From NCBI GenBank assembly GCA_001769275.1, contig MEOQ01000045.1, positions 129,821 to 193,820 of the forward strand: a stretch of 64,000 nt of DNA, written 5' to 3'. The stretch's first letter is position 1; each line of letters starts with the position of its first letter. The stretch is from Bacteroidetes bacterium GWF2_43_63. GTDB taxonomy: Bacteria; Bacteroidota; Bacteroidia; Bacteroidales; DTU049. The position numbers and the translations under genes were made by a program. The notes beneath the pieces were generated by a model. That model was not told where the DNA came from, made no database searches, and worked only from the letters and a program-made list of their open reading frames with translations. Positions 12,553 through 64,000 of the stretch are shown one piece after another.

Positions 12553-12703
12553 CCTTCATCCTTCAAACTTCCTTGTTCCTTGTTCATGATTCACGAATGT
12601 GTCTTCCCTTCATCCTTCAAACTTCCTTGTTCCTTGTTCATGATTCACGAATGTGTCGTCCCTTCTTCCTTCAAACTTCCTTGTTCCTTGTTCATGATTC
12701 ACT
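12553..12703. repeat. 54-bp tandem repeat, 2.8 copies
   Basis: The unit ccttcatccttcaaacttccttgttccttgttcatgattcacgaatgtgtcttc starts at 12553, 12607 and 12661. There are no unique spacers. Confidence 0.9.
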
Positions 12704-47146: not shown

Positions 47147-47316
47147 CCACAACGCAGAGAGCTTGCTTCGCAAGGCACTCAGGTTGTGGGAGGGTTTTGA
47201 AGCCAACCTCTCCACCGTAGAATAGCGTCGCATTGTGCGACCTGGGTGCGCTGGACTGAAACTCAAATGTTGTCCACAATGCAGAGAGCTCGCTACGCGA
47301 GGCACTCAGGTTGCGG
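47147..47316. repeat. Direct repeat of a ~43-bp module (CCACAAYGCAGAGAGCTYGCT.CGCRAGGCACTCAGGTTG)
   Basis: Copies lie at 47147-47189 and 47274-47316, with a third at 53646-53687. Each contains a short ctcgc/gcgag-type hairpin. Confidence 0.85.
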
Positions 47317-50080: not shown

Positions 50081-51061
50081 TTATTTATAATTCAACAGAT
50101 AATAATACAAGATTGGAAACACGATGGGCATCAGCCAGAGTATGATGAACGCGGCTTTCCGACGGGCGTTGTACATCAGTCGGGTCCAGTAAAAAACAGT
50201 TGCAAGTCCGTAAATTGAAAATAAAATATTCGTATTGAACAACGACGAAATCATTGCAGGAGCAAGTGCTATCAACGAAAACAGGATCACTGAATAACTC
50301 CGGCGGACAGATATTTTTGATTCACTAACTCTTGAATGAACAATCAAAGCGAGTAAAAATAAAAGAGCCGGACAGCCGTAGAAACTGGCCGGGAATGCAA
50401 ATTGGAGCAAGTCTTCTTGCAATACAAAAGCACCCGGATTGTCAAGTAAAATATTTGTTTTGTTAGTCAGAAAATACCAGAACAAAACAAAAAAAGCAGG
50501 AGTCAGAAAACCGGTCAACCACACAAGGGTGCGGCGGAACGATATGTTCTGACTGATGATCATGGTGATAATTCCTGTAACAAAAAACAAAACAGCAAAT
50601 GCACCATTCAGTAGCAAAAATCCACTTAAGATTGCGGCGGTAAGTGTCCGGCGAAGTACCGTCCCCTGCGATTCTCCGGGCAAAAGCTGATAAAGAATAA
50701 GGAGGAAAGCTGTCCAATAAATCGACACCATCAATCCGATGCTCCAATCCACAATGGTGAAATGAATGACTGGAAGAATAAAAAAGAGCATGTATTCTTT
50801 TCGTGACACTTCGAGATTTCTTGTCGAAATGAGCCACAGAAGCAGTGTTGAGGCTGCAATAAATAAAACGCGAAGAATTACAATCCAGCTGAAACTGAGT
50901 GTAAGCACTGTTTCCGTAATGCCGGCAAGCCAGGGGTGTAATTGAATATTGGTGTTTGGTTCTCCGTTGAGTATCAGAAAAACAAGCGTAGCAAGCCAGA
51001 GCAGCATGAAAACGAATTTCATCTGCGAGTTGATGACTCTTTCGGCATTAAACGATCTCAT
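50081..51061 (-). CDS. Polytopic membrane protein of unknown function
   Basis: About 9-10 hydrophobic segments. The start is uncertain: 51061 overlaps the purD end by 14 bp, and the alternative Met at 51022 does not. Confidence 0.65.
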
Positions 51062-52331: not shown

Positions 52332-52359
52332 AAAACAACTTTGCTGCAAATTTACAATT

Positions 52360-52500
52360 TAGACGCGGAATAACGCGGAAAATAGTATAAGCCCCAACGG
52401 ATAGACGCGGAGAGAGAGGTTTAGACGCGGATTAACGCGGAATATATTAAAACTGACGGATGGACGTGGAGAAAGAGGATTAGACGCGGAATATTTCAAA
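52360..52500. repeat. ~60-bp tandem repeat carrying five TAGACGCGGA decamers
   Basis: The decamer occurs at 52360, 52402, 52422, 52461 (variant tggacgtgga) and 52481, with spacing 42/20/39/20 bp. It starts 29 bp upstream of the purD start codon. Confidence 0.85.
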
Positions 52501-52920
52501 ACGCGTTTTGACGGATTCAAAGGTGCTTCATTTAAAACCACGTGGAACGTGGCAAGCTGTGACATGTCGCTCAATTTGTCCCTGGGGTGGAGTCTATCCC
52601 GCTGCCTCCTTCGATACACCGCAAGCAGATATCTCGCAAAGAGCTGCGAGAGCGGCACTCAGGATGACAGCGAGGGTGTGCCATTCAATTTTGGGTTGCG
52701 ATGCACGCATTGCTGGTGGTCTCTGGATGACAGCGGCGGGGCCAAGGGTTACCGATGTTGGACTGCAGAGTTTGCTCTACAAGAGGCGGAGGCGCATCTT
52801 ATGGAGCTCCGCAGCTTTTTAAATCCTTCGGATACTCGATCTCGTAACGTTTGTAACGTCTGTAACGTGTAACGAAAGTCTTACTAAACCTTAACCTGGG
52901 CGCGCGTCTCCCGACGCGTG
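52501..52920. repeat. Mosaic intergenic repeat composite
   Basis: Words present are ccacgtggaacgtggcaagctgtgac, cttcgatac, actcaggatgacagcg, a GTAACG array (ctcgtaacgtttgtaacgtctgtaacgtgtaacg, about 52840-52873) and ctgggcgcgcgtct (also at about 53724). Confidence 0.75.
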
Positions 52921-52923
52921 ACC

Positions 52924-53472
52924 CTATTCTCCCATGTTGAATTTGACGATCAGATGAAAGAAGAATGTTTCATTGTCGATGATGGTGAAAGCAAAATCGA
53001 GGGGCATGCCGGCTTTGCGGCGGATCTCGAGGATGCCAAGGCCATTGCTTCCGTTTGGACTCTCAGCGATAACAGGTTTTTCGGCATCAGCCTGACGTAC
53101 ATTTTCTTTCATGCTGCCACCGGCTTTGCGGTTGGCTTCGCGGATTCTTTTTTCAACAACCGTTCTGCGGGTGATACTTACGGCGTTTCCGCAATCAATT
53201 TTAAATCCCTGCCGGGTGCGTGTTGCCAGAAAAACAGCCGGATAAAGCGGGTATTCGTTATGCATATAAATATTCTGCAAAATCTCGCTGGCGGCAAGCA
53301 GAATCCGTTTTCTGATGCGGGTTTCCTGCTCTCCGAACAACCCTTCCATATTGTCAAGAATCCTGTCCGATTTCTTCTCAGAAATGGTGCCTTTGAATTG
53401 AGAAATCACATCGGCAGAATTGATGTTCTCCTTGATAAAATCGTCAATATTGAATTTCGATCCTGGTTTCAT
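52924..53472 (-). CDS. Small GHKL-like kinase, SiaB/DUF6272-like (tentative)
   Basis: 182 aa. ..ISQFKGTIS...RKRILLAASEILQNIYMHN.. and ..NGLGILEIRRKAG.. resemble the N-box and G-box of small anti-sigma-type Ser/Thr kinases. There is no partner gene nearby. Confidence 0.45.
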   Translation of the reverse strand: MKPGSKFNIDDFIKENINSADVISQFKGTISEKKSDRILDNMEGLFGEQETRIRKRILLAASEILQNIYMHNEYPLYPAVFLATRTRQGFKIDCGNAVSITRRTVVEKRIREANRKAGGSMKENVRQADAEKPVIAESPNGSNGLGILEIRRKAGMPLDFAFTIIDNETFFFHLIVKFNMGE

Positions 53473-53639
53473 GGGGGTTCAGTGAATTAATTTTTTCTGC
53501 AGATCATCAATGAACAATGTCATGTCTGCCCAAAGGTATAAAATAATTTTAATTATTATCGGTCATTTTTTTAACATGAATGGATAAAATTGGGAAAGCT
53601 GGGCAATCCTACAAAAACTTCTTTTTGAAATTCCCTGCA

Positions 53640-53979
53640 ACATTTCCACAACGCAGAGAGCTCGCTCCGCGAGGCACTCAGGTTGTGAAAATATTCAATG
53701 GGCGAGCCATCTCAAATTCAATCTGGGCGCGCGTCTTCTGCTTGTGTTTACGCCACCTTTACAACCGAGACACGCAGTCTTCTTGTCCATGTGGCTTTCA
53801 CGTGAAGCGTCCTGGAAGAGTCGGAGAGGGAATGCACAGTGCACAACGCCAACGCGCCGCCTGCCTTTGTCTCGCTTGTAACGTTGTAACGCTTGTAACG
53901 TGTAACGCTTGTAACGCGTAACGTCTGTAACGCCTGTAACGCCACGCTTCCAGCGTGATAAATTCCACGCTTGTAACGT
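53640..53979. repeat. Mosaic intergenic repeat composite ending in a nine-copy GTAACG array
   Basis: Third copy of the CCACAACGCAGAGAGC module (53646-53687). The 65-bp segment 53797-53861 is about 90% identical to 59223-59287. GTAACG occurs at 53878, 53886, 53895, 53902, 53911, 53918, 53927, 53936 and 53973. Confidence 0.85.
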
Positions 53980-55197
53980 CTATTTCTCCAATAAAAATTT
54001 CCGGATATGACAATGCTCAATGCCTTCAAAACTAGCACCCTCAAATGCATCCATGGTAATTACTTTTTTCGGATATTGATCTTTTATCTTCATAAGATTG
54101 CCAAATTCCCGCTCTACCGTTTTTTCTCCTTTCAAATTCAGCGCAACCTGTATATACATCTTTTCCTGATTCTTTTCGCACACAAAATCAATTTCACCTG
54201 TGCCAATGCTGCCCACTTTTACATCCCACCCCAAAAACAACAAATGGTTAAATGCGACATTTTCCAATATCTTTCCCAAATCCTGCGGGCGGTATCCAAT
54301 CACTGCATGGCGTAGGCCCGTGTTCTCAAAATAGTTTTTTCCACCTGTTTCGAAAATCCGCTTACCTACAATATCGTAGCGTTCAGCGTGATGTATAATA
54401 AAGGCATTGGCCAGATAGCTGATGAAAAGTTGTATCTGATTCGGCGCAATATTCACCTGCTGAGATTTTAAATAATCACTGATTTTTTTTGCCGAAAACA
54501 AGCTCCCAGTATTATCGGCCAGAAATTGTATCAGCTTTTCCAGCAACTTGTGACTACGTATATTGTATCGATTGATAACATCGCGATATACAATAGTGGC
54601 GTAAATACTTTTCAGATATTCCATCAATACTGCATTTTCCTGGGGAAGATGCATCAGATAGGGTAAACCGCCATAACGAAAATACCGATCCAGTGTTTTG
54701 TCAGAATCCTGAATCTGGTGAAAATGCAAAAACTCGGGATAGGACAAGCTGTAAATTTTTATCTCCACAAAACGGCCACTGAGCAAACTGGAGAGCTCGC
54801 CTGATAACAGCTCAGCATTGCTGCCCGTGCAGTAAATATCGCAGTTCCCTTTTAGCAAAAGGCTGCGCAAAGCTTTTTCAAATGCCGGTATTTCCTGTAT
54901 TTCATCAATGAAGATATAATTCATCCGATCACTTACTATATTTGATGCAATGTAATCGTGAAGGTCTTTTGCCGTCTGCAGGTGATCGAACAACAAATCC
55001 TCCTTGTTTATGTATATCACCGGCACATCATGCTCCAAACCGCGCAGATGCTGTATGATCTGAAAAAGGATGTAACTCTTCCCGACCCGGCGCTGCCCCG
55101 TGAAAACTTTAATCACGTTTTTTCCGATAAAAGGGATTATTCTTGACAGATATTCATGTCGCTTTTTTAATCCCGCAGGCAGAGTTGTTTTGTTCAT
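53980..55197 (-). CDS. AAA+ ATPase with C-terminal DUF4143 (COG1373-type)
   Basis: Walker A ..TGQRRVGKSY.., Walker B ..YIFIDEIQEIP.., ..TGSNAELLSGELSSLLSGRF.., and a C-terminal ..GEIDFV.. nuclease-fold-like motif. Confidence 0.85.
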   Translation of the reverse strand: MNKTTLPAGLKKRHEYLSRIIPFIGKNVIKVFTGQRRVGKSYILFQIIQHLRGLEHDVPVIYINKEDLLFDHLQTAKDLHDYIASNIVSDRMNYIFIDEIQEIPAFEKALRSLLLKGNCDIYCTGSNAELLSGELSSLLSGRFVEIKIYSLSYPEFLHFHQIQDSDKTLDRYFRYGGLPYLMHLPQENAVLMEYLKSIYATIVYRDVINRYNIRSHKLLEKLIQFLADNTGSLFSAKKISDYLKSQQVNIAPNQIQLFISYLANAFIIHHAERYDIVGKRIFETGGKNYFENTGLRHAVIGYRPQDLGKILENVAFNHLLFLGWDVKVGSIGTGEIDFVCEKNQEKMYIQVALNLKGEKTVEREFGNLMKIKDQYPKKVITMDAFEGASFEGIEHCHIRKFLLEK

Positions 55198-55299
55198 ATA
55201 TATAATTGTGTTTATAGTATCTATGCAAATATACGAAAGTTATAAACATGATTACAATAAATAGTAATAATGTGAAAACATTGGGGTCAAATAGTCAAG

Positions 55300-55570
55300 G
55301 GTTGCCTTTGCTCCGTCTTTGCGGCTATCGCGCATATCGGTGGCTGACGCGTAAATTGCACAGCGCGCAAAGCTCGGCGCATGCGGCATGCGGCAAGGCT
55401 TTGCATCGCTCCCACGCTTATTCCCGCTCTCGCTCTCACGCTCGCTCTGATTTATTCAACCTCTATGCGTCGCATAGCGACCTGTCACGATTGCTATCGT
55501 GAGCGTTGAAGAAGGACAAAGCACATCACCTCATCGCCAACGCGCCCCCTCGCCAACGCGCCGGGAAGGA
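55300..55570. repeat. Mosaic intergenic repeat composite
   Basis: gcgcacaaagctcggcgcatgcggcatgcggcaaggctttgcatcgctccc (compare 60905-60950), a CGCTCTCGCTC run, and the 42-bp segment 55471-55512, which is identical to 57384-57425. Confidence 0.85.
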
Positions 55571-55641
55571 CAGAGCAGTAGCAATATTGACCGCGCCATT
55601 GAATGAATAAGATTTATGTTGCATCATGGAAAAAAATTGAT

Positions 55642-55649
55642 TATCTTTG
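55642..55649 (+). promoter_or_regulatory. Candidate -7 box (TAtcTTTG) for the hipB-like/hipA operon
   Basis: tatctttg lies 61 nt upstream of the TTG start at 55710. Confidence 0.4.
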
Positions 55650-55709
55650 CTTGCTTAATAGATAAAATATTATCAATTAAACCGAAAAACCAAATTAAAG
55701 ACTAAAATA

Positions 55710-56030
55710 TTGGTCGAAATATCGGAAATATTAAACCGTAACAATCCAAACAGCATTGCCTTGGAACTGGCAAAGCGTGCGAAAAAATTGCGCTTAGCCG
55801 GCAATATGTCGCAGCAGATGCTGGCGGAAAAATCAGGTGTGAGCCTGGGCTCAGTGAAACGGTTTGAGCAACTTGGTCTGATTTCGTTACAGCATTTATT
55901 GCATATTGCTGTTGCGTTGAATGCGGCCGAAGATTTTATACAGTTATTTTCACAACCGCATTATGAAAGTATTGATGCTCTTGTGAAACTCAAAATGGCG
56001 GAAAACCGGAAACGTGTGCGAAGAAAATGA
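55710..56030 (+). CDS. XRE-family helix-turn-helix antitoxin (HipB-like)
   Basis: ..LRLAGNMSQQMLAEKSGVSLGSVKRFE.. HTH motif. There is a 4 bp ATGA overlap with hipA. The TTG start is inferred because no in-frame ATG lies upstream of the HTH. Confidence 0.75.
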   Translation: MVEISEILNRNNPNSIALELAKRAKKLRLAGNMSQQMLAEKSGVSLGSVKRFEQLGLISLQHLLHIAVALNAAEDFIQLFSQPHYESIDALVKLKMAENRKRVRRK

Positions 56031-57106
56031 AGATACCATCAACAGATATGATTACGGTGAAATGCGGCTCGCACATAGCTGGTCGAATGATATTGTCGCC
56101 GGAACGATTAATGGTTTTTGAGTACGACGCCAATTGGCTAAAGAATGGTTTTGCGCTTTCACCATTTTTTCTCCCGCTGAAGGCCGGCGCCATGACTGCC
56201 CGGCGAGAGCCATTCCATGGTAACTTCGGCGTTTTCGCCGACAGTCTTCCGGATGGATGGGGAAATCTTTTGTTGGATCGTGTATTGCGAAAATACGGAC
56301 TGGATCCGGCTTCGCTCACAACCATTCAGCGGCTTTCGCTTGTTGGAAATAACGGCATGGGTGCATTGACCTATGAACCCGCATTTGCAGTATCTGAACC
56401 GCAGGCATTGGAAGATCTCAACGAAATTGCTGCTGAAGTTGAGATGATAATGAATGACCAGGCATATATGGAATCTGTCGATGAGTTGTACCGTCAGGCA
56501 GGATCATCGGCGGGTGCCAGACCCAAGGTGCTGATTATGCACGAAGGTGAGCACTGGCTGGTGAAATTTGCATCCTCAATGGATCCGGACAATATTGGTG
56601 AAATAGAATTCGAATACTCGCAGCGCGCACGCAGAGCCGGAATTGAAATGCCTGAAACCCGGCTTTTTGAAGGAAAGTATTTTGGCGTGAAACGTTTCGA
56701 TCGTGAAGGAGAAGAGCGGATTCATATGATATCCGCTGCGGGATTGCTGCATGCCGATTTTCGGGTGCCATCGCTGGATTATACCGAGTTGATTAAAGCC
56801 ACCAGAGCGCTGACCGGGAGTGTTGTAGAGGTCGAGAAAATGTATCGGCTTATGGCTTTCAATGTCCTGATTGGGAATAACGATGATCACGCGCGCAACT
56901 TTTCTTTTATTTACAAAAAAGGTGAATGGAAATGCTCACCGGCATATGATTTACTTCCGTCGGTAGGAATGAATGGCGAACACTGCACAGCTGTTGCGGG
57001 TAGCGGACGTCCCGATGAAGGCGACATGCTGCGTGTTGCTGCTCAATGTAGCATTGAGAATGTGCGGGCCAAAGAGATTATTGCGGAAGTTGGAAGGTCT
57101 TTATAG
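56027..57106 (+). CDS. hipA: HipA-family Ser/Thr kinase toxin (type II TA)
   Basis: N-terminal coupling domain ..FADSLPDGWGNLLLDR.., ..GSSAGARPKVLI.. and catalytic ..IGNNDDHARNFSF.. Confidence 0.85.
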   Translation: MKIPSTDMITVKCGSHIAGRMILSPERLMVFEYDANWLKNGFALSPFFLPLKAGAMTARREPFHGNFGVFADSLPDGWGNLLLDRVLRKYGLDPASLTTIQRLSLVGNNGMGALTYEPAFAVSEPQALEDLNEIAAEVEMIMNDQAYMESVDELYRQAGSSAGARPKVLIMHEGEHWLVKFASSMDPDNIGEIEFEYSQRARRAGIEMPETRLFEGKYFGVKRFDREGEERIHMISAAGLLHADFRVPSLDYTELIKATRALTGSVVEVEKMYRLMAFNVLIGNNDDHARNFSFIYKKGEWKCSPAYDLLPSVGMNGEHCTAVAGSGRPDEGDMLRVAAQCSIENVRAKEIIAEVGRSL

Positions 57107-57615
57107 TGATGCATAGCGCTTCAGGCATGCGGCATAGAGCACGACGCATGCGGCATGAAGCACAACGCAAAGCGCACAAAGCTTAATGCTTAACGATTGC
57201 ACAAAACCCTAAGCCTTCAACTACATCCCGCTCCCGCTCTCATTCTCGCTCTGATTCCCGCTCTCGCTCAGATGATTCCCGCTCTCGCTCTCACGCTCGC
57301 TCTGATTTTTTCAGCCTCTCTGCGTCGCGCCTAGTCATCACGTGAAACCACGTAAAACGTGGCAAGCTGTGACAGGCTGTTTCACGCATAGCGACCTGTC
57401 ACGATTGCTATCGTGAGCGTTGAAGAGGCACAGCGCACAACGCATAGCTTAATGCTTAAGAGCTTAAAGATTAGACAAAACCTTAAACTTTCAACTTTAA
57501 GCTTTAAGCAATCGCCTCATCGCCCCCTCGCCTGTAACGTGTAACGCCTTCCGCTTCCAGCGGAATAAATTCCACGCCTGTAACGCCCGTAACGATTGTA
57601 ACGACCATATTTGTA
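57107..57615. repeat. Mosaic intergenic repeat composite (GCATGCGGCATG left, CGCTCTCGCTC middle, CACGTGAAAC, GTAACG array right)
   Basis: 57110-57195 is GCATGCGG-type and 57225-57310 is a CGCTCT run. 57384-57425 is identical to 55471-55512, and 57533-57576 is identical to 59326-59369. Confidence 0.9.
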
Positions 57616-57984
57616 ATTAAGCCAATAATATTTTTTATCTTTGCGATAAGTCTCGCAACGAAAATTTTCGCAATACATGGAAATGAATTCCTTTAGATTT
57701 GGAACCCATTGCTCCGAAACGAAAGGCATTCTTTAGTCTGACATAGGCGCAGCAGTCAATCTATGGTCCAACATTTTTGCATTTTCAGAGATTTTATGGT
57801 CTGAAAAAACAACATTTATTGATCATTATTGGTTTGGAAAAACGAAAATTGTAGCTGAATAAATTTGAAAAGAACACATTATCAGCATAATATACTCCAA
57901 GGTTGCCATGCGCAATAATTGGTACAACAATGTTAATAAGGTTGAAATATGGAAATTAAAATTCCAAAATGCAACCATAATTAT

Positions 57985-57992
57985 TATCTTTG
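57985..57992 (+). promoter_or_regulatory. Candidate -7 box (TAtcTTTG) for the AAA+/DUF4143 gene at 58029
   Basis: tatctttg lies 37 nt upstream of ATG 58029. Confidence 0.45.
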
Positions 57993-58028
57993 CAATGGAA
58001 ATTAGTGGTATCACCAGTCTATGAATCT

Positions 58029-59186
58029 ATGATAACACGTTTTTTATATTCTGAACTATCCTGGTCCATGCAAAAGTTCCCGGCTGTCTGCATCACGGGC
58101 CCACGACAATGTGGAAAGACAACGCTTGCAAAACAATTGTGTTCTGCCTCTGCCAAAGATTTCATCTATCTTGATCTTGAAAAGCATGAAGATTTGATGC
58201 GCATTAAAGATGCCGGCCTTTTTTTTCGTGATAACAGGGATAAACTGATTGTTCTGGACGAAATTCAACGAAAACCAGAGCTTTTCTCAGAAATCAGAGC
58301 CGAAATTGATGCCTTCAAACGCTCCGGCCGCTTTCTGATTCTTGGATCGGCCAGCCCCGATATTATTAAAAACACATCAGAAACACTTGCTGGCAGAATC
58401 CGATATATCCATTTGCATCCTTTCATTCTGAGTGAATTGAATGATCCTGTGTCGTGGAAGGACTTGATGTTCTGGGGCGGATTCCCCGATGTTGTACTCG
58501 ATAATGATGAGAGATTCAGGAAGGAATGGCTCGATAACTTTATTTATACCTATCTCGAACGCGATTTGCCTATGCTCGGTTTAAAAGCTGATCCTGTACA
58601 GATTCGCCGATTGTGGGAAATGCTTGCGTGGCAGGCCGGCAGCCTTCTCAATTCCTCAAATCTCGGCCGCTCTCTTGGCGTTTCAAACCATACTGTAAAT
58701 AATTATCTCGATTATCTCGAAGGGGCTTTCATGATTCACCGTATTGAACCATTCGATGCCAATATCGGGAAACGAATCGTTAAGTCTAAAAAGGTATTTA
58801 TTGCCGATACCGGACTTTTACACCGCCTGTTGCGTCTTAGTTCTTACGACCAGCTTATGGGCAATGCGATGGCAGGTCATTCCTGGGAAAACTTTGTATT
58901 CAATCAGCTGCAGCCACTATTGAAAAACGACTGGAATATCTGGTTTTACCGCACACATACTGGTGTTGAAACCGATCTTGTACTTGGAAAAGGAATGAAA
59001 CCCCTGGTGAGTATTGAAATAAAACTTTCATCGTCTCCTGGTATGACACGCGGCTTTGCAACAGCGATTGCAGATCTTGGAACTCTGAAGAATTTTATCA
59101 TTATCCCTGAAAGCGAAAAATTCAGAGTAAGGGAAGATGTTACTGTCTATGGCCTTCAACAGTTTATCGCCGAATTACCTTTGTAA
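58029..59186 (+). CDS. AAA+ ATPase with C-terminal DUF4143 (second, divergent paralog)
   Basis: Start moved to MITRFLYSEL.. Walker A ..TGPRQCGKTT.., Walker B ..LIVLDEIQRKP.., ..LGSASPDIIKNTSETLAGRI.., and C-terminal ..GVETDLVL.. Confidence 0.85.
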   Translation: MITRFLYSELSWSMQKFPAVCITGPRQCGKTTLAKQLCSASAKDFIYLDLEKHEDLMRIKDAGLFFRDNRDKLIVLDEIQRKPELFSEIRAEIDAFKRSGRFLILGSASPDIIKNTSETLAGRIRYIHLHPFILSELNDPVSWKDLMFWGGFPDVVLDNDERFRKEWLDNFIYTYLERDLPMLGLKADPVQIRRLWEMLAWQAGSLLNSSNLGRSLGVSNHTVNNYLDYLEGAFMIHRIEPFDANIGKRIVKSKKVFIADTGLLHRLLRLSSYDQLMGNAMAGHSWENFVFNQLQPLLKNDWNIWFYRTHTGVETDLVLGKGMKPLVSIEIKLSSSPGMTRGFATAIADLGTLKNFIIIPESEKFRVREDVTVYGLQQFIAELPL

Positions 59187-59440
59187 CGCCTTCCGACCTT
59201 CAAGAGTCGCGACTGTGTCACGTTTCACGTGAAGCGTCCTGGAAGAGTCGGAGAGAGAACGCACAGCGCCCAACGCCAACGCGCCGCCCACCTTGTCACT
59301 TTGTTACCTTGTCACTCTGTTACTCTGTAACGTGTAACGCCTTCCGCTTCCAGCGGAATAAATTCCACGATTGTAACGCCACGCTTTCAGCGTGATAAAC
59401 TCCACGCCTGTAACGCCTGCATCCGATCAAAACACATCTG
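59187..59440. repeat. Mosaic intergenic repeat composite ending in a GTAACG array
   Basis: 59223-59287 is about 90% identical to 53797-53861 and 59326-59369 is identical to 57533-57576. Hairpins present are ccgcttccagcgg and cacgctttcagcgtg. Confidence 0.9.
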
Positions 59441-59513
59441 CGTCCAGTATGCCGGCAGCAGTTGAAATATTTCGTTTTTATGCAATATATTTGCTGTAAT
59501 GAATAAAATAGAC

Positions 59514-59521
59514 TATATTTG
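59514..59521 (+). promoter_or_regulatory. Candidate -7 box (TAtaTTTG); a second copy lies at 59486-59493
   Basis: tatatttg lies 20 nt upstream of ATG 59541. The other copy lies 6 nt upstream of ATG 59499, so the true start is ambiguous. Confidence 0.4.
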
Positions 59522-59540
59522 TACAGTAAAGAACAATTTA

Positions 59541-60806
59541 ATGATTAAAAACATTATTATTCAGCAGCAGGAAGAAAAATTATTTTTGCTAAACCGGCCA
59601 TATATTGAACGTATTGAAGCCGGTGAAAAAACAAAATTATTAAAGACAAGTCTTATTAAAGTCATTGCAGGGCCCAGAAGAGCCGGAAAGTCGGTGATTG
59701 CTCTTCAGCTTTTGAAAGAGAAAAATTTTGCCTATCTGAATTTTGACGATGATTTGTTGTTGAAACACTTCGCCGAAGACAAGGTGCTGCAAGCATTGCA
59801 TCAGATATACCCGGGGTTTGAATATTTATTGCTCGATGAAATTCAAAATCTTGATGGCTGGGAATTATGGGTGAATAAATTGTATCGCCGTGGTATTAAT
59901 ATGATTATCACAGGTTCCAATGCCAGATTGCTTTCACATGAACTGGCCTCGGGTCTGACAGGCCGTTTCGTGCAGTTGACAGTTTTGCCATTTGGCTTTG
60001 CCGAAGTCATTAGGTTTAGCAACTTGTTGCCCGCAGAAAAGCCTCAGGCCACTCTGACAAAGAAAGCCAGATTGCTTGCAATGCTCGAAAATTATCTTTC
60101 CAATGGCGGCTTTCCTGAGACATTGTTGAATCAAGGGCTATTGGTAAATTATCTTTCATCCTTGTTTGATTCTATTTTATTAAAGGATATTCTGAATCGT
60201 TTTCATATTCGCCAAACCCGGCAGTTATACGATTTGTCGCACTACCTGCTGTCGAATTACACAAATTGTTTTACCTTTAACCAGTTGAAAGAATCGCTTG
60301 ATTTCAACAGCGTTGCAACCGTTCAGAAATTTACCGGTTATCTCGAAGAACCCTATCTTTTTCAGCATCTCACACGATACAATACCAAAATAAAAAGTCA
60401 GCAGAAAGCACCACAAAAAATATACATTGTCGATAATGGATTTGTAAAAGCCAGGTCGTTTGAATTGTCGCCCAATTACGGCCGCCTGCTTGAAAATCTT
60501 GTATTTGTCGAATTGTTGCGACGAAATTTTCTGCCCGAATTGTCATTGTTTTATTACCGTACCCGTAATGACCGTGAAGTTGATTTTTTGCTTCGGGAAG
60601 GAAATAAGACAGATCAGTTGATTCAGGTCTGCTATGCGATGGATCAACCCAAAACAATCAAACGGGAAATTAGTGCGCTTATTGAAGCAGCTGAGGAACT
60701 CAAATGCACAAAGCTTTTGATAATTACCTGGGACAAAGAGGAAGTGATAGAACAGAAAAATCTTCGTATTGTTGTTGTACCGGCCTATAAGTGGCTAATG
60801 GAATAG
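59541..60806 (+). CDS. AAA+ ATPase with C-terminal DUF4143 (third, divergent paralog)
   Basis: Walker A ..AGPRRAGKSV.., Walker B ..YLLLDEIQNLD.., ..TGSNARLLSHELASGLTGRF.., and C-terminal ..REVDFLL.. The alternative start at 59499 would add 14 aa. Confidence 0.8.
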   Translation: MIKNIIIQQQEEKLFLLNRPYIERIEAGEKTKLLKTSLIKVIAGPRRAGKSVIALQLLKEKNFAYLNFDDDLLLKHFAEDKVLQALHQIYPGFEYLLLDEIQNLDGWELWVNKLYRRGINMIITGSNARLLSHELASGLTGRFVQLTVLPFGFAEVIRFSNLLPAEKPQATLTKKARLLAMLENYLSNGGFPETLLNQGLLVNYLSSLFDSILLKDILNRFHIRQTRQLYDLSHYLLSNYTNCFTFNQLKESLDFNSVATVQKFTGYLEEPYLFQHLTRYNTKIKSQQKAPQKIYIVDNGFVKARSFELSPNYGRLLENLVFVELLRRNFLPELSLFYYRTRNDREVDFLLREGNKTDQLIQVCYAMDQPKTIKREISALIEAAEELKCTKLLIITWDKEEVIEQKNLRIVVVPAYKWLME

Positions 60807-61188
60807 AGCATAGGGCTTGCGGCATGCGGTCCCGCCTTCGTCGGGATAAACTCCGGGTATGCGGTGCACAACGTCACGCTTGCAGCGTGATAATCTCCAC
60901 GCACAGCGCACAAAGCTCGGCGCATGCGGCAAGGCTTTGCATCGCTCCCGCTCTCATTCTCGCTCTCTCTCTCGCTCTGATTCCCGCTCTCGCTCAGATG
61001 ATTCTCGCTCTCGCTCTCACGCTCGCTCTGATTTATTCAACCTCTCTGCGTCGTGAAGCGACCTGAGTGCGTTGAAGAAGAACAAAGCACATCGCCTCCA
61101 CGCCACATCGCATCATCGCCACATCGCCACCTCGCTCCCACGCCACCTCGCCAAAAAAAAATATACATGGCTCATTCAGAACTGACAA
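60807..61188. repeat. Mosaic intergenic repeat composite
   Basis: gcttgcggcatgcgg at the left edge, 60905-60950 matching 55364-55412, a CGCTCT run (60945-61035), and a CATCGCCAC/CCTCGC run (61090-61152). Confidence 0.85.
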
Positions 61189-61293
61189 CCAATAACCATT
61201 AACCAATAACCATTAACCATTAACCAATAACCAATAACCAATAACCAATAACCATTAACCATTAACCATTAACCATTAACCATTAACCAATAA
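61189..61293. repeat. 15-unit heptanucleotide array of two variants (CCAATAA / CCATTAA)
   Basis: The units are exactly contiguous in the order A T A T T A A A A T T T T T A (A=ccaataa, T=ccattaa). The array is flanked on both sides by actgac and ends 23 bp before a TAtaTTTG box. Confidence 0.95.
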
Positions 61294-61315
61294 CTGACCA
61301 CTGGCAGCTAATTCT

Positions 61316-61327: not shown

Positions 61328-62686
61328 ATGTGGACATTCAACCCCTCCGATTATATAACCCTCTGGGACTGGCTCCTGTCGTTTATGTATATGGGCATGG
61401 CCATGATGGTTTTCTGGGTGTATATCCGCTTCCGAAAAAACGATGACCCTGCATATCGCTGGTTTATTCCCGCCCTCTTTTTCAAATTTCTGGGCGGTAT
61501 CGCCGTGCTGATGATCTATGCATATTATTACACAGCAGGAGGTGATACTTATTCTTATTTCGATAACACCAAAGTTCTTATACGGCTATCTGGAGATGAT
61601 TTTTCTTCGGCATTTCAGTTTTTGCTGGGCGATAACAGCTGGGAATCCTATTCAAAATTCACTTTCGAATCCGGGCGCCCATGGACGGATCTGTATGCTG
61701 ATGACAATGCCTGGGCGGTCAGCCGGTTCACTTATCCAATTGTAATATTAGGATTGGGCCGAATAATGACTTCAACCATTCTTTTCAATGTATTTGCTTT
61801 CATTGGTCCCTGGAAACTCTTCAAATTTCTCAATCAGCGTTACCCCGGACAAACAGCCCGCCTGGCCTTTGCCATCTTCTTCATTCCATCCTGTGTTTTC
61901 TGGGGTTCGGGTTTGTATAAGGACAGCTTCACGCTTTCAGCCACGTTGTGGATTCTGTATTCCATCATGGCCATTTCGTTTGAAAAGAAAAAAATTGCAC
62001 TCAATATTTTTTTGATTCTGGTCAATTCTTATTTAATAATCAGCATCAAACCCTATATTTTTGTGGCGCTCATGCCGGCCGCACTCATTTTGTTTCTGTA
62101 TTCATCGGTGCAGAATATCCGTAACAAGGCACTCCGTGTGCTGGTGCTTCCATTGGGCACAGCAATTCTGCTTGTCGGAGGATTATCCGCTTATTCTTAT
62201 CTTTCTCCATCACTTGGAAAATACGGAAGCATGGATTCTATGATGGAAAAATTAGTGGTCACCCGCGAGGACTTTATAAACAACAAAACCTACAGCTCCA
62301 ACTTTTTCGATATCGGAGATTTTGATCCAACCATGGGGGGCCTTGCACGAAAGGCACCGCTGGCCTTCATTTACGGATTGTTCGGTCCTTTTCCCTGGCA
62401 GGTGGCCAACCCCGTGATGGCCATCAGTTCGCTCGAGGGAATGTTGTTTCTGGTTTTATTTGTAATCGCATTGCGAAATGTATTGTTTCGAAAGGGCGCA
62501 TCCAGAGTGCTTTCCGATCCGGTGATCATAGGGTTTCTCATTTTTTCTCTCATGTTTATCATCTTTGTGGGATTAAGCACCGCCAACTTCGGATCACTGG
62601 TCCGGTATCGCATTCCGGCGCTGCCGCTGTTCTTTTTCTGTGTGATGTATATTATTGGCAAAACGCGGAGAGATCAGCTGGAGTAA
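61328..62686 (+). CDS. Polytopic membrane protein (polysaccharide polymerase/glycosyltransferase-like topology; function unknown)
   Basis: 452 aa with about 11-12 hydrophobic segments and a mid-protein soluble loop. It neighbours a HisF-like (WbuZ-type) sugar-modification gene. Confidence 0.6.
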   Translation: MWTFNPSDYITLWDWLLSFMYMGMAMMVFWVYIRFRKNDDPAYRWFIPALFFKFLGGIAVLMIYAYYYTAGGDTYSYFDNTKVLIRLSGDDFSSAFQFLLGDNSWESYSKFTFESGRPWTDLYADDNAWAVSRFTYPIVILGLGRIMTSTILFNVFAFIGPWKLFKFLNQRYPGQTARLAFAIFFIPSCVFWGSGLYKDSFTLSATLWILYSIMAISFEKKKIALNIFLILVNSYLIISIKPYIFVALMPAALILFLYSSVQNIRNKALRVLVLPLGTAILLVGGLSAYSYLSPSLGKYGSMDSMMEKLVVTREDFINNKTYSSNFFDIGDFDPTMGGLARKAPLAFIYGLFGPFPWQVANPVMAISSLEGMLFLVLFVIALRNVLFRKGASRVLSDPVIIGFLIFSLMFIIFVGLSTANFGSLVRYRIPALPLFFFCVMYIIGKTRRDQLE

Positions 62687-62689
62687 ACA

Positions 62690-63262
62690 CTTTATGTGAA
62701 AATGTGCGACTGCGTCGATGTGCGGCTTCGCCGTATGTGTGAATATAAGCAACATAAAAACTGGCCATTGGCTACTGAATACTGGCTACTAGTAAGAAGG
62801 TGTGAAAATGTGGGGCTCACGTAAAACAGCTTGTCACGTTTCACGTGATGACACGTTCGCCCATGCGGCGCGGAGTTTATCCAGCTGGAAGCGGGGCGCA
62901 TGTGAGAATTTTAGATTCTGCAAATGATGTGAAAATGTGAGGCTCACGTAAAACAGCTTGTCACAGCTTGCCACGTTTCACGTGGTTTCACGTGATGACA
63001 TGTTCGCCTATGTGAGAATTAGAGATACCTTAAAAGCTATGAGTTATGGGTTATAAGTTATGAGTGTAGCGTTGTAACGTCTGTAACGACACAGCCCCTT
63101 CTTTAACCTCTCTGCGTCGCACAGCGACCTGAGTGCGTTAAAGAAGCCCATTACTTCTCAGCTTCTGCTCAGAGCTGATCGCTGATTATCCCGAGTCCTG
63201 CGGACGGGACTTCGCTGACAGCTGATGACTGAGATGTAACGATTGTAACGTGTAACGAAAGG
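62690..63262. repeat. Mosaic intergenic repeat composite with a long direct repeat rich in CACGTG and two GTAACG clusters
   Basis: gtgaaaatgtg[ga]ggctcacgtaaaacagcttgtcac..gtttcacgtgatgaca[ct]gttcgcc occurs at about 62802-62870 and about 62929-63012. GTAACG clusters lie at 63070-63093 and 63236-63258. Confidence 0.85.
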
Positions 63263-63264
63263 TT

Positions 63265-64000
63265 CTAAAAGCAACTGATTTCTTCTGCAGCCGGGTAATT
63301 AATCAACACTGCCTTATTCGGACCATAAAACACAAACATGCTTCCGGCAGCAAGAGCAGTAGCGTGTGCCTGATGGTATGCATCGCGCATGTGCTGCAGG
63401 TTTCCGGCACCCCCCAATGCAACAACGGGAATGGTGACTGCAGCAGATATTTTTGCAATCAGATTCAGATCATATCCATTCATAGTGCCATCGTGATCGA
63501 TGGATTGCACTATAATTTCACCGGCGCCCTGATGTTGCATCTCGATGGCAAATTCAACCGGATTTAAACCGCTGGCTTTTGTGCCATTGATAATATAAGT
63601 TTGCTCGTCGCCTAAAAATTTCTTTTTCACATCCATGCATACAACAATGGTCGAAGCGCCAAAAGTATCGGATGCTTTTCTGATAAATTCTTTATTCAAC
63701 ACCGCCTGAGTATTAATAATCACTTTCTCGGCACCGGCATTGGTCAATTCGCGAATTTGCTCAATAGTAGAAATGCCGCCACCAACAGCGAAAGGCATAT
63801 TGGCTTCTTCGCCCACTTCGCGCACAAAATCAACCGAAATGCAGCGGCTTTCCCGCGTTGCTTTTATATCGAGAAAAACGAGTTCATCTGCTTTCAGATC
63901 ATTGAATATTTTTACAGCATTGATGGGGTCTCCGATGTATTTCGGATTCCCAAACCGGACGGTTTTCACAAGCACCTGGTCTTTTAGTAATAGGACGGGT
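63265..64000 (-). CDS. HisF-like cyclase subunit (WbuZ/HisF2-type, sugar amidination), 5' end outside the window
   Basis: ..VKTVRFGNPKYIGDPINAVKIFNDLKADELVFLDI.. and ..GGGI..IEQI..L...GAEKV.IN.. The reading frame stays open upstream of the track Met to position 64000 (..PVLLLKDQVL..). Confidence 0.8.
   Translation of the reverse strand, partial: PVLLLKDQVLVKTVRFGNPKYIGDPINAVKIFNDLKADELVFLDIKATRESRCISVDFVREVGEEANMPFAVGGGISTIEQIRELTNAGAEKVIINTQAVLNKEFIRKASDTFGASTIVVCMDVKKKFLGDEQTYIINGTKASGLNPVEFAIEMQHQGAGEIIVQSIDHDGTMNGYDLNLIAKISAAVTIPVVALGGAGNLQHMRDAYHQAHATALAAGSMFVFYGPNKAVLINYPAAEEISCF

What the first reader, a model, noticed from the sequence alone, without database searches (positions are those of the whole stretch)
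52924..60806. Accessory segment with three highly divergent AAA+/DUF4143 ATPases interleaved with HipBA and an orphan small kinase
Between core purD and a polysaccharide-type locus lie 53980-55197(-), 58029-59186(+) and 59541-60806(+). All three have Walker A/B motifs, the xGSxxxxLxxExxxxLxGR motif, and a C-terminal acidic motif (EIDFV, ETDLV, EVDFL) compatible with a PD-(D/E)xK-like module. By eye the three share only the motif positions, so they are not recent duplicates. A HipB-like/HipA toxin-antitoxin pair (55710-57106) and a SiaB-like kinase (52924-53472) are intercalated. Every unit is bounded by the mosaic repeats, and no integrase or tRNA is present. An ATPase-nuclease plus a TA module is the kind of content seen in defence or addiction islands. 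The function of COG1373/DUF4143 proteins is, as far as I know, unestablished.
Basis: partly seen in the sequence, partly recalled or inferred. Interest (0 to 1): 0.65.

Follow-up and report, generated by a model that had tools for sequence, protein, structure and literature searches.

The report
Variable spot with ATPase-nucleases and HipBA
A gene-swapping spot in an uncultured Bacteroidota genome holds three very different copies of a common but untested "candidate phage-defence" ATPase-nuclease and a HipBA toxin-antitoxin pair; this is an ordinary example of a known kind, with a few small new details.

Summary
At the stated coordinates are three intact AAA_14+DUF4143 genes that are only 22-27% identical to each other, an overlapping hipB-hipA pair and a DUF6272 gene. 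There is no tRNA, integrase or transposase.

- **Accessory status.** Four relatives (purD 77-87% identical) each carry different cargo here, so ATPase-1, hipBA and ATPase-3 are accessory. The "orphan SiaB-like kinase" is a core gene, next to purD in all four.
- **Family.** All three ATPases match PADLOC's candidate PDC-S01. This family is very abundant and was proposed as defence by "guilt by embedding". It was tested once in E. coli against T4/T5/T7 and was not among the protective systems.
- **Architecture.** The ATPase-2 model (pLDDT 91) shows AAA+, then a winged helix, then a PD-(D/E)xK fold.
- **Nuclease motif.** ATPase-2 has the full invariant E..ExD..ExK. ATPase-1 and ATPase-3 carry a conserved lysine-less variant, E..ExD..Qx[A/C/S/T] followed by R-E.
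- **Transcription.** Each unit has its own Bacteroidota-type promoter box.
- **Repeats.** The mosaic repeats do bound every unit, but they are lineage-wide intergenic repeats, not island borders.

Most likely these are stand-alone ATP-dependent DNA-binding nucleases plus an addiction or abortive-infection module, gathered in a recombination hotspot. Verdict: a new member of a known kind, of low-to-moderate interest.

The parts
52924..53472 (-). DUF6272 gene (sub-threshold SiaB-family resemblance). It is a core gene and forms the conserved left boundary of the variable interval; it is not cargo.
   Evidence: Pfam DUF6272 54.7 bits. NCBIfam SiaB_fam_kinase 53 bits against cut-off 85. Present next to purD at 79-93% identity in L086, L088, L090 and L091.
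53796..53978 (.). Mosaic repeat composite 'Y': a GTAACG array plus a CGCTTCCAGCGTG hairpin, lying just past the 3' end of ATPase-1.
   Evidence: It is 77% identical over 195 nt to 59223-59417.
53980..55197 (-). ATPase-1: AAA_14 + DUF4143, 405 aa, PADLOC PDC-S01 (model PDLC04787). Its nuclease motif is the variant E312..E335xD337..Q350xA352..R363-E364.
   Evidence: A -7 box TATATTTG lies at 55233-55226 on the minus strand, 29 nt upstream of the start.
55349..55562 (.). Mosaic repeat composite 'X' in the divergent ATPase-1/hipB promoter region.
55710..56030 (+). hipB-like HTH antitoxin, 106 aa. A -7 box TATCTTTG lies at 55642-55649.
   Evidence: Pfam HTH_3. It overlaps hipA by 4 nt. Promoter box.
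56027..57106 (+). hipA-family Ser/Thr kinase toxin, 359 aa, with intact GNNDDHARNFS and SPAYDLL motifs.
   Evidence: Couple_hipA + HipA_C. Aligned to solved HipT and HipA.
57110..57610 (.). Mosaic repeats: composite 'X' followed by a partial 'Y'.
57640..57930 (.). AT-rich spacer (about 36% GC) of unknown nature, with no ORF, no Rfam family and no counterpart in the relative L090.
58029..59186 (+). ATPase-2: AAA_14 + DUF4143, 385 aa, PADLOC PDC-S01 (model PDLC04790). Walker A K30. Winged helix at about residues 189-260. The PD-(D/E)xK domain spans about residues 278-385 (58860-59183) with E287, E314xD316 and E330xK332.
   Evidence: A -7 box TATCTTTG at 57985-57992 favours the 58029 start. The orthologue in L090 is 93% identical at protein level and 90% at nucleotide level.
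59223..59417 (.). Mosaic repeat composite 'Y'.
59541..60806 (+). ATPase-3: AAA_14 + DUF4143, 421 aa, PADLOC PDC-S01 (model PDLC04787). Its nuclease motif is the variant E318..E346xD348..Q362xC364..R375-E376.
   Evidence: A -7 box TATATTTG lies at 59514-59521.
60800..61294 (.). Mosaic repeats: 'Y' fragment, 'X', an ATCGCC array, and AACCATT repeated 15 times.
61328..62686 (+). Multi-pass membrane protein of 452 aa with no Pfam match. It is the right flank of the interval. An orthologue (53% identity) lies two genes from DUF6272 in relative L088.

Best explanation
The interval between the core DUF6272 gene (next to purD) and the hisH/hisF2 polysaccharide-type genes is a recombination hotspot. 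It has no integrase. In this strain it has collected four independent conflict-type units.

**The three ATPases.** Three units are single-gene, anciently diverged members of the AAA_14-DUF4143 family (COG1373, PADLOC candidate PDC-S01).
- Shown by sequence and model: each protein is an AAA+ P-loop ATPase, a helical lid, a winged-helix domain and a C-terminal PD-(D/E)xK-fold domain.
- Inferred from the ORC/Cdc6-type archaeal ATPases, McrBC and STAND nucleases it resembles: the protein binds DNA through the winged helix, uses ATP binding and hydrolysis to assemble or switch state, and cuts nucleic acid with the C-terminal domain. This would act against incoming phage or plasmid DNA.
- ATPase-2 has the complete catalytic set E..ExD..ExK.
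- ATPase-1 and ATPase-3 belong to branches that keep the three acidic residues but have a strictly conserved Gln and a small residue in place of Glu-x-Lys, followed by a conserved Arg-Glu. They probably still bind metal but use altered chemistry, or act as sensors.

**The fourth unit.** This is a HipB-HipA toxin-antitoxin pair. By analogy with characterised HipA kinases, it arrests growth by phosphorylating a translation factor when HipB is lost. It would serve as an addiction or abortive-infection module.

**How the units relate.** They are transcribed separately and were gained separately. ATPase-2 is shared with one relative. ATPase-1 + hipBA form a 4.5 kb insertion relative to that relative.
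For: **Domains and family.** Pfam and PADLOC assignments are. The three proteins are 22-27% identical to each other, yet each has 60-77% identical homologues in other families and phyla such as KSB1, Kapabacteria and Pedobacter. ATPase motifs are invariant.

**Structure.**
- The full-length ATPase-2 model has pLDDT 91 and pTM 0.90, with an alpha-beta-beta-beta-alpha-beta C-terminus carrying E287, E314xD316 and E330xK332 on the expected elements.
- Its best PDB matches are the archaeal AAA+/winged-helix ATPases 2fna and 2qen (TM about 0.5), then RuvB, ORC and Avs4.
- The C-terminal domain alone (pLDDT 88.5) matches Bax1, McrC (TM 0.63), EcoT38I, YaeQ, the DdmD-DdmE complex, VRR_NUC and Kpn2I. 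I recognise all of these as PD-(D/E)xK-fold proteins from my own knowledge.

**Variant motif.** Q is found in 121/122 and 130/135 homologues of the two variant branches. R-E is found in 120/122 and 132/135.

**Hotspot.**
- L090 has DUF6272-ATPase-2-ribBA.
- L086 has DUF6272-hisH-IVP-hisF2.
- L088 has DUF6272-methyltransferase-ATP_bind_3-memb452.
- L091 and L086 have PDDEXK_3 between DUF6272 and purD.
- The window has 4,462 nt where L090 has 318 nt.

**Selection and exchange.** ATPase-2 against its L090 orthologue gives dN/dS 0.087. Its dS is 0.37, against 0.83-1.34 for three flanking core genes.

**Separate transcription.** Each unit has its own TAnnTTTG box 16-61 nt upstream. The background is 0.55 per kb per strand.

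**Homologue contexts.** L092 has a tandem divergent pair with PemK, NTP_transf_2, PDDEXK_3, an rve fragment and Y1_Tnp. L094 has AbiEi/AbiEii and a transposase next door. L095 has another tandem pair.

**Circumstantial.** A Thermus AAA_14/DUF4143 gene is induced 6.6-fold by plasmid DNA (PMC4406477).

**HipA.** Its catalytic motifs align to solved HipT and HipA.
Against: - No member of the family has a demonstrated function.
- One PDC-S01 representative tested in E. coli B against T4, T5 and T7 was not among the four candidates that protected (bioRxiv 10.1101/2024.09.26.614923).
- Payne et al. report that PDCs as a class associate less with other defence systems than candidates found by enrichment.
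- No RM, BREX, CRISPR or other validated system lies in the window segment.
- Two of the four sampled homologue contexts are plain housekeeping neighbourhoods.
- ATPase-1 and ATPase-3 lack the catalytic lysine.
- GC and GC3 of the segment genes are not distinct from their neighbours.
- Synteny rests on only four metagenome contigs of relatives.
- The dS contrast is one gene pair and could partly reflect codon constraint.
Confidence: 0.55

Rival explanations
1. The AAA_14-DUF4143 genes are not immune genes. They could be selfish or neutral 'passenger' paralogues, or DNA-binding ATPases with a regulatory or chromosome-related role. They would simply accumulate where insertions are tolerated. PADLOC's PDC-S01 label would then be a false lead caused by the family's sheer abundance.
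For: [quoted passage not shown] That abundance is unusual for a true defence gene.
- The only phage test did not show protection.
- The candidate list was built from as little as a single embedded instance.
- Homologues sit between a sigma/FecR/SusCD set and rhamnose genes, or next to a PAS kinase.
- One homologue is annotated as an ArsR-family regulator on a Spirosoma plasmid.
- ATPase-1 and ATPase-3 lack the catalytic Lys.
Against: - Purifying selection is strong: dN/dS 0.087, and 60-77% identity is kept across phyla.
- An invariant full nuclease motif in the ATPase-2 branch argues for a selected enzymatic function.
- Distribution is patchy and strain-variable, and toxin-antitoxin and Abi genes co-locate here and in L092 and L094.
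- No terminal repeats or transposase travel with the genes.
Confidence: 0.3
2. The four units form one cooperating system. The lysine-less ATPase-1 and ATPase-3 would act as sensors or regulators, ATPase-2 as the executing nuclease, and HipBA as a back-up growth-arrest arm. This resembles clustered NLR paralogues.
For: - All three family members in the 64 kb window lie within 7 kb.
- Tandem pairs of very divergent paralogues recur in 2 of 4 sampled homologue loci.
- One full-motif protein and two variant-motif proteins sit together here.
Against: - Each unit has its own promoter box and orientations are mixed.
- ATPase-2 stands alone in L090.
- The L092 pair consists of two ExK-type proteins.
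- The same hipBA was found only in this strain's arrangement, and a metagenome scan gave a single short unrelated-context hit. Linkage could therefore not be shown.
Confidence: 0.08
3. The segment is the decayed remnant of one integrated mobile element, such as an ICE, prophage or genomic island, that arrived as a block.
For: Its content is accessory and of conflict type. Family members occur on 381 of 72,556 plasmids.
Against: - There is no integrase, transposase or tRNA, and no pseudogene fragment of the family in the gaps.
- There is no compositional shift.
- The parts have different histories. ATPase-2 is shared with L090, while ATPase-1 and hipBA are inserted beside it.
- There is almost no presence in phages: 9 of 50,697 records at 30% identity or less. 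There is no PHROG family for the architecture.
Confidence: 0.05

Closest known systems
PADLOC phage-defence candidate PDC-S01 (Pfam AAA_14 PF13173 + DUF4143 PF13635; COG1373)
   Same: All three proteins match PDC-S01 HMMs over their full length (E = 4e-146, 3e-90 and 1e-103). They have the same two-domain Pfam architecture. They are single-gene units with their own promoters. The literature describes the family as an ATPase fused to a PD-(D/E)xK domain.
   Different: They are not embedded in or next to an RM, BREX or DISARM system, which was the basis on which the candidate was proposed. Two of the three carry a lysine-less variant of the nuclease motif. The family itself has no validated function.
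Archaeal AAA+ ATPases SSO1545 (PDB 2fna) and PABY2304 (PDB 2qen), Pfam ATPase_2 PF01637
   Same: They are the best structural matches to the ATPase-2 model over about 360 columns (TM 0.48-0.53), sharing the AAA+ core, lid and winged helix. There are weak Pfam ATPase_2 hits.
   Different: Identity is only 15-16% and TM about 0.5. These proteins are about 350 aa. I did not check whether they carry a C-terminal PD-(D/E)xK domain with an E..D..ExK motif. Their function is also unknown.
McrBC-type NTP-dependent restriction (AAA+ McrB plus PD-(D/E)xK McrC)
   Same: The same two activities are combined. The ATPase-2 C-terminal domain superposes on T. gammatolerans McrC with TM 0.63.
   Different: McrB is a GTPase of a different AAA+ clade with a separate nuclease subunit and a modified-DNA reader domain. 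Here everything is one polypeptide with a winged helix. There is no sequence-level relationship.
STAND/Avs-type nuclease NTPases (e.g. Avs4, PDB 8dgf)
   Same: An NTPase, helical and winged-helix module is joined to a nuclease effector. Avs4 is among the structural matches (TM 0.37-0.38). There is a weak nSTAND3 Pfam hit for ATPase-2.
   Different: There is no C-terminal sensor repeat region. The proteins are about 400 aa rather than about 1,500. The nuclease is C-terminal, not N-terminal.
HipBA type II toxin-antitoxin (E. coli HipA, Legionella HipT)
   Same: Couple_hipA + HipA_C domains, conserved catalytic and Mg-binding motifs, and an overlapping upstream HTH gene.
   Different: HipA here is 359 aa against 440 aa. 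Scores are far below the NCBIfam equivalog cut-offs: YjjJ 52 against 401, couple_hipB 19.6 against 71.65. Close relatives are rare in the collections searched.

Membership tests
PDC-S01 / AAA_14-DUF4143 (COG1373) | Full-length match to a PADLOC PDC-S01 HMM | tested here: met
   ATPase-1 matches PDLC04787 at 4.2e-146 (residues 9-404 of 405). ATPase-2 matches PDLC04790 at 2.8e-90. ATPase-3 matches PDLC04787 at 1e-103.
PDC-S01 / AAA_14-DUF4143 (COG1373) | Pfam AAA_14 followed by DUF4143, both above gathering score | tested here: met
   AAA_14 scores 95-107 bits against 27. DUF4143 scores 55.8, 149.6 and 81.7 bits against 28.1.
PDC-S01 / AAA_14-DUF4143 (COG1373) | Intact P-loop ATPase site (Walker A Lys, Walker B Asp-Glu, conserved Arg) | tested here: met
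   The residues are present in all three proteins and invariant or nearly so in 120-135 homologues of each branch.
PDC-S01 / AAA_14-DUF4143 (COG1373) | C-terminal PD-(D/E)xK fold | tested here: met
   The ATPase-2 models show alpha-beta-beta-beta-alpha-beta topology. The top PDB matches to the isolated domain are PD-(D/E)xK proteins, though E-values are weak (1.6e-3 to 0.1). ATPase-1 and ATPase-3 were not modelled. Their fold is inferred from alignment.
PDC-S01 / AAA_14-DUF4143 (COG1373) | Canonical catalytic residues E..D..(D/E)xK | tested here: inconclusive
   Met for ATPase-2 (E287, D316, E330, K332; invariant in 117-120 of 120 homologues). Not met for ATPase-1 (Q350, A352) or ATPase-3 (Q362, C364). 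Both have a conserved Q-x-small variant followed by R-E.
PDC-S01 / AAA_14-DUF4143 (COG1373) | Embedded in or adjacent to a known defence system (the basis of the candidate) | tested here: not met
   No RM, BREX, DISARM or CRISPR gene lies in the segment. The only neighbour of conflict type is hipBA.
PDC-S01 / AAA_14-DUF4143 (COG1373) | Protection against phage or plasmid | not testable with these tools
   The literature holds one representative tested against T4, T5 and T7 in E. coli B. It was not listed among the protective candidates.
HipBA type II toxin-antitoxin | HipA N-terminal and C-terminal kinase domains above Pfam thresholds | tested here: met
   HipA_C scores 167.2 bits against 30.5. 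Couple_hipA scores 59.5 bits against 22.5.
HipBA type II toxin-antitoxin | Catalytic loop and Mg-binding motif conserved | tested here: met
   GNNDDHARNFS aligns to GNEDMHLKNFS of HipT, and SPAYDLL aligns to SPAYDLL.
HipBA type II toxin-antitoxin | Upstream, translationally coupled HTH antitoxin | tested here: met
   hipB (HTH_3, 29.5 bits against 23) ends at 56030 and hipA starts at 56027.
HipBA type II toxin-antitoxin | Membership of a curated NCBIfam HipA or HipB subfamily | tested here: not met
   YjjJ equivalog scores 52.1 against 401. couple_hipB scores 19.6 against 71.65.
HipBA type II toxin-antitoxin | Toxicity of HipA neutralised by HipB | not testable with these tools
   This needs expression assays.
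SiaB-family protein kinase | Score above the NCBIfam SiaB_fam_kinase cut-off | tested here: not met
   53.3 bits against 85. The kinase_SiaB equivalog scores 23.8 against 225. Only Pfam DUF6272 passes.
SiaB-family protein kinase | Partner genes (SiaA phosphatase, SiaC substrate, SiaD cyclase) nearby | tested here: not met
   None is present in the window segment or next to the orthologue in four relatives.
Integrase-borne genomic island / prophage / ICE | Integrase or transposase, tRNA or att-type target, compositional shift | tested here: not met
   There is no tRNA and no such domains. GC and GC3 are within the range of neighbours. The ATPases have no PHROG family.

The most novel reading that the evidence does not exclude
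Very divergent AAA_14-DUF4143 paralogues may cluster because they work as a set. The strictly conserved lysine-less branches (E..ExD..Qx-small..RE) would be alternative-chemistry or non-cutting sensor subunits. They would partner with a canonical ExK-type executor, in the manner of clustered NLR paralogues. The lineage-wide mosaic (BIME-like) repeats would supply the homology that lets such cassettes be captured and swapped at one spot without any integrase.
Probability: 0.08. Interest if true: 0.6.

Novelty: new member of a known kind. Interest (0 to 1): 0.28.

Why it matters
AAA_14-DUF4143 proteins are among the most common uncharacterised "defence candidates" in bacteria and archaea, with tens of thousands of copies, yet nobody knows what they do. 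This locus adds no new kind of system, but it offers a compact, well-delimited test case.

- It holds one canonical-motif member and two variant-motif members side by side.
- Each has its own promoter, and they sit in a demonstrably variable spot.
- There is evidence of purifying selection and of recent exchange.

The most reusable points for anyone setting out to characterise the family are these:
- Large branches of the family have replaced the catalytic Glu-x-Lys with a conserved Gln-x-small plus Arg-Glu.
- Divergent paralogues recurrently sit in tandem.

Tried and rejected
1. **GTDB species representatives for synteny.** Only one relative closer than 57% purD identity was returned (L006, 68%). 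Its upstream side is unrelated (GT9, membrane glycosyltransferase-like, rlmH, nadC). It is too distant to be decisive, so I switched to graded purD homologues and their contigs.
2. **Metagenome scan with HipA to test HipBA/ATPase linkage.** It gave one 1.2 kb contig at 41% identity, which is uninformative.
3. **Exact-protein look-ups of HipA and ATPase-3.** They returned only the same strain's arrangement, or single-gene short contigs. No second context was found.
4. **Pseudogene remnants in the intergenic gaps.** I searched with 360 family and purD proteins and found none. I searched for remnants of the PDDEXK_3 and 23S_rRNA_IVP genes seen in relatives and found none.
5. **Rfam on 51-64 kb at E <= 1.** The only hit was a sub-threshold mir-753 match (28.9 bits against 62) inside a tandem repeat, which I rejected as chance.
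6. **PDB sequence search with ATPase-2.** It found nothing below E = 0.1, so no member of the family has a solved structure under that sequence search.
7. **Literature search on AAA_14, PF13173 and COG1373.** The results were swamped by unrelated strings and only the 2012 PD-(D/E)XK survey was relevant. I found no paper reporting an experimentally established function for DUF4143.
8. **Integrated-element reading.** I rejected it for lack of integrase, tRNA or compositional shift.
9. **Repeats as specific island borders.** I rejected this because the same modules occur elsewhere in the window and in relatives.

Full report
**1. What is there**

The ORF list reproduces every gene of the finding at the stated coordinates.

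- Pfam assigns AAA_14 + DUF4143 to 53980-55197(-) (ATPase-1, 405 aa), 58029-59186(+) (ATPase-2, 385 aa) and 59541-60806(+) (ATPase-3, 421 aa). All scores are above the gathering thresholds.
- 55710-56030 is HTH_3. 56027-57106 is Couple_hipA + HipA_C. 52924-53472(-) is DUF6272.
- The last gene reaches only 53 bits against NCBIfam's SiaB_fam_kinase cut-off of 85. 'SiaB-like' is therefore a resemblance, not a membership.
- The three ATPases are 22-27% identical pairwise.
- A profile built from either branch finds exactly these three genes and no other in the 64 kb window.
- The window has no tRNA.
- The left-over ORFs in the gaps are repeat-derived and have no Pfam domain. No pseudogene fragment of the family is hidden in the gaps.

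**2. Where it comes from**

The purD protein (start at 52331) is encoded identically on MAG contigs GCA_003499605.1 DNSQ01000014.1, ENA ANAN16-1 scaffold_78 and JGI 3300001242, all with the same gene order. ATPase-3 is also found on GCA_003518945.1. Best purD relatives among species representatives are uncultured Bacteroidota at 68% identity or less.

**3. Is the segment accessory?**

I took purD homologues at graded identity and fetched their contigs. I then located the window's proteins on them by tblastn.

The downstream side, purD-memb326-RNase HII-DUF3108, is conserved in all. So is the DUF6272 gene immediately upstream of purD, at 79-93% identity. That gene is therefore core, not cargo. 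Beyond DUF6272 every relative differs:

| Relative | purD identity | Content beyond DUF6272 |
|---|---|---|
| L090 | 87% | A single ATPase-2 orthologue (93% aa), then ribBA |
| L086 | 86% | hisH-like GATase, a 23S_rRNA_IVP gene, then hisF2 (82%), in inverted orientation relative to the window |
| L088 | 77% | A methyltransferase, an ATP_bind_3-like gene, then the orthologue of the 452-aa membrane protein (53%) |

L086 and L091 carry a small PDDEXK_3 gene between DUF6272 and purD, and L090 carries a 23S_rRNA_IVP gene there. The window has only repeats at that place.

Nucleotide alignment shows that the window has 4,462 nt (ATPase-1, hipBA and repeats) where L090 has 318 nt between DUF6272 and the ATPase-2 promoter. 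So the interval is a hotspot. ATPase-1, hipBA and ATPase-3 are strain-specific as far as sampled. ATPase-2 is older at this site or was exchanged.

ATPase-2 against its L090 orthologue gives dN/dS = 0.087, which indicates purifying selection. Its dS is 0.37, whereas purD, RNase HII and DUF6272 of the same two contigs have dS of 0.83-1.34. This suggests the ATPase-2 alleles share a more recent ancestor than the surrounding chromosome. It is only one pair, and codon constraint is not excluded.

GC and GC3 of the cargo genes are within the range of their neighbours.

**4. The repeats**

All six gaps contain blocks of short-unit tandem arrays and longer shared modules.

- A composite I call X recurs at 55349-55562, 57110-57534 and 60901-61154.
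- A composite Y recurs at 53796-53978, 57532-57610 and 59223-59417, with a fragment at 60870-60902.
- So every unit is indeed bounded by them, and hipBA is flanked by direct X copies.
- Pieces of the same modules also lie at 14728-14895, 47147-47313 and 62947-63261 in the window and in relatives L086 and L091.
- Short-read assemblies of this strain break exactly there. hipBA sits on a 1,789-nt contig, ATPase-3 on a 1,622-nt contig, and the purD contig starts 231 nt upstream of purD.

They are a lineage-wide interspersed mosaic repeat family, reminiscent of enterobacterial BIME/REP elements (my own comparison, untested). They could provide homology for recombination, but they are not specific island borders.

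**5. Transcription units**

The Bacteroidota -7 promoter consensus TAnnTTTG (established knowledge for this phylum) occurs 16-61 nt upstream of purD, DUF6272, ATPase-1, hipB, ATPase-2 and ATPase-3. The background is 0.55 per kb per strand. This supports separate transcription of each ATPase and of hipBA. It also favours the 58029 and 59541 starts over the longer ORFs.

**6. What the ATPases are**

*PADLOC and literature.* PADLOC-DB models of 'PDC-S01' match all three over their full length, at 4e-146, 3e-90 and 1e-103. ATPase-1 and ATPase-3 fall on one sub-model and ATPase-2 on another.

- PDC systems are untested candidates. They were derived from genes embedded in BREX, DISARM or type I RM loci, and the authors proposed that even a single embedded instance warrants investigation (bioRxiv 10.1101/2024.01.29.577857).
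- PDC-S01 is reported as the fourth most common 'defence' in prokaryotes, with 29,494 bacterial and 9,986 archaeal hits. It is described as an ATPase fused to a PD-(D/E)xK domain (PMC12988326).
- It is the most frequent single locus in rumen genomes (PMC13356809).
- One representative was tested in E. coli B against T4, T5 and T7 and was not among the four candidates that protected (bioRxiv 10.1101/2024.09.26.614923).
- DUF4143 was already listed as a PD-(D/E)XK family of unknown function in 2012 (PMC3424549).
- A Thermus DUF4143 gene is induced 6.6-fold by plasmid DNA (PMC4406477).

*Distribution.*
- ATPase-3 alone recruits 10,140 clusters (50% identity level) at E <= 1e-3.
- Homologues at 60-77% identity to ATPase-1 and ATPase-2 occur in other families and phyla. 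This is higher than purD identity to the same breadth of taxa and points to constraint plus horizontal spread.
- The family is nearly absent from phage records (9 of 50,697, at 30% identity or less) and has no PHROG family.
- It is present on 381 of 72,556 plasmids.

**7. Structure and active sites**

*Full-length model.* An AlphaFold2 model of ATPase-2 from 120 sequences has pLDDT 91 and pTM 0.90.

- Its order of elements is an AAA+ alpha/beta core (residues about 1-130), helical lid, a helix-turn-helix with a beta-hairpin wing (about 189-260), and a C-terminal alpha-beta-beta-beta-alpha-beta unit.
- The best PDB matches are the archaeal AAA+/winged-helix ATPases 2fna and 2qen (TM about 0.5), followed by RuvB, ORC subunits, Avs4 and p97.
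- No closer match to the full-length model turned up.

*C-terminal domain.* The last 114 residues modelled alone (pLDDT 88.5) match Bax1, Tk-TIP26, McrC (TM 0.63), EcoT38I, YaeQ, the DdmD-DdmE complex, SfsA, VRR_NUC, AgeI, Kpn2I and EndoMS. The E-values are weak (1.6e-3 and above). I recognise all of these as PD-(D/E)xK-fold proteins from my own knowledge.

*Motifs.*
- In 120 homologues, E287 (helix 1), E314 and D316 (strand 2) and E330 and K332 (strand 3) are invariant or nearly so. This is a complete canonical site.
- In the ATPase-1 branch (122 sequences) and the ATPase-3 branch (135 sequences) the three acidic residues are equally invariant.
- In those branches strand 3 reads Q-x-A or Q-x-[C/S/T/A], with Q in 121/122 and 130/135 and no lysine. 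An R-E pair about 12 residues later is conserved in 120/122 and 132/135.
- This is a selected variant, not decay. Whether it cuts is unknown.

**8. Contexts of homologues**

- L092 has a tandem pair of 27%-identical AAA_14-DUF4143 genes. Beside them are PDDEXK_3, an integrase-core fragment, two small nucleotidyltransferase genes, PemK and a Y1 transposase.
- L094 has AbiEi/AbiEii and a transposase nearby.
- L095 has another tandem pair between sigma/FecR/SusCD and rhamnose genes.
- L093 has a lone copy by a PAS kinase.

Clustering of divergent paralogues is thus recurrent, as is co-location with toxin-antitoxin genes. Plain housekeeping neighbourhoods are equally common in this small sample.

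**9. HipBA**

- HipA aligns to solved HipT and HipA with the catalytic GNxDxHxxNFS and the SPAYDLL Mg-binding motif intact.
- hipB overlaps hipA by 4 nt.
- Both fall far below NCBIfam subfamily cut-offs, and close relatives are rare.
- By established knowledge of HipA kinases, the pair most likely arrests growth by phosphorylating an aminoacyl-tRNA synthetase when HipB is degraded.

**10. Verdict**

- The spot is a genuine integrase-free variable site. It is filled with three independent PDC-S01-type AAA+/winged-helix/PD-(D/E)xK proteins and a HipBA module.
- The kinase-like gene is core, the repeats are generic, and the defence idea is already published and unproven.
- The most likely mechanism is a stand-alone ATP-dependent DNA-binding nuclease, with HipBA as an independent addiction or abortive module.
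- The architecture and motifs are shown. The activity and the biological role are inferred.
- It is a new member of a known, uncharacterised kind.
- The lysine-less conserved variant site, the recurrent tandem arrangement of divergent paralogues and the low dS of ATPase-2 are the only modestly new points.

Noticed in passing
window 52358-52564, 53796-53978, 55349-55562, 57110-57610, 59223-59417, 60800-61294; also 14728-14895, 47147-47313, 62947-63261; L086 597-714 and 2705-3740; L091 109-232: An interspersed mosaic repeat family built from shuffled modules. The modules include GTAACG, CGCTCT, ATCGCC and TTAGACGCGGA arrays, AACCATT repeated 15 times, a CGCTTCCAGCG hairpin and longer shared blocks. 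It fills intergenic gaps in this lineage and breaks short-read assemblies exactly at its copies. It resembles BIME/REP elements, but no RAYT-type gene was seen in the window.
   Followed up: partly
window 58029-59186 against L090 2656-3810: ATPase-2 and its orthologue differ by dS 0.37. The flanking core genes of the same two contigs differ by dS 0.83-1.34. This suggests allele exchange between lineages at a conserved site.
   Followed up: partly
window 57624-57930: An AT-rich stretch of about 300 nt (about 36% GC) with no ORF and no RNA family. It is preceded by a promoter-like AATAATATTTTTTATCTTTGC and has no counterpart in relative L090. Its nature is unknown.
   Followed up: partly
L086 3086-3508, L087 270-692, L091 1231-1653, L090 4958-5332, L086 803-1165, L092 5763-6140: Small PDDEXK_3 and 23S_rRNA_IVP (four-helix-bundle) genes come and go between DUF6272 and purD in relatives and also appear near AAA_14 pairs. 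They behave like tiny mobile passengers. The window has no remnant of either.
   Followed up: partly
L086 3-1837 against window 63265-63975 and beyond (L100 9725-11498): The hisH-like/hisF2 gene block lies in inverted orientation relative to DUF6272 in L086 compared with the window. The hotspot therefore also undergoes inversion.
   Followed up: no
window 53980-55197 and 59541-60806 (protein residues Q350/A352/R363/E364 and Q362/C364/R375/E376): Two large branches of the DUF4143 family have replaced the catalytic Glu-x-Lys by a strictly conserved Gln-x-small residue, followed by a conserved Arg-Glu. I did not find this described in the papers searched.
   Followed up: yes
window 12553-12702 and 29009-29069: There is a 54-nt unit repeated 2.8 times at 97% identity and a perfect 30-nt unit repeated twice. 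I did not examine them.
   Followed up: no
window 50081-51061 and 61328-62686: Two multi-pass membrane proteins (326 and 452 aa) have no Pfam family. The first is conserved next to purD in all relatives, overlapping its 3' end. The second has a 53% orthologue in L088 beside glycosyltransferase and MBOAT genes.
   Followed up: no
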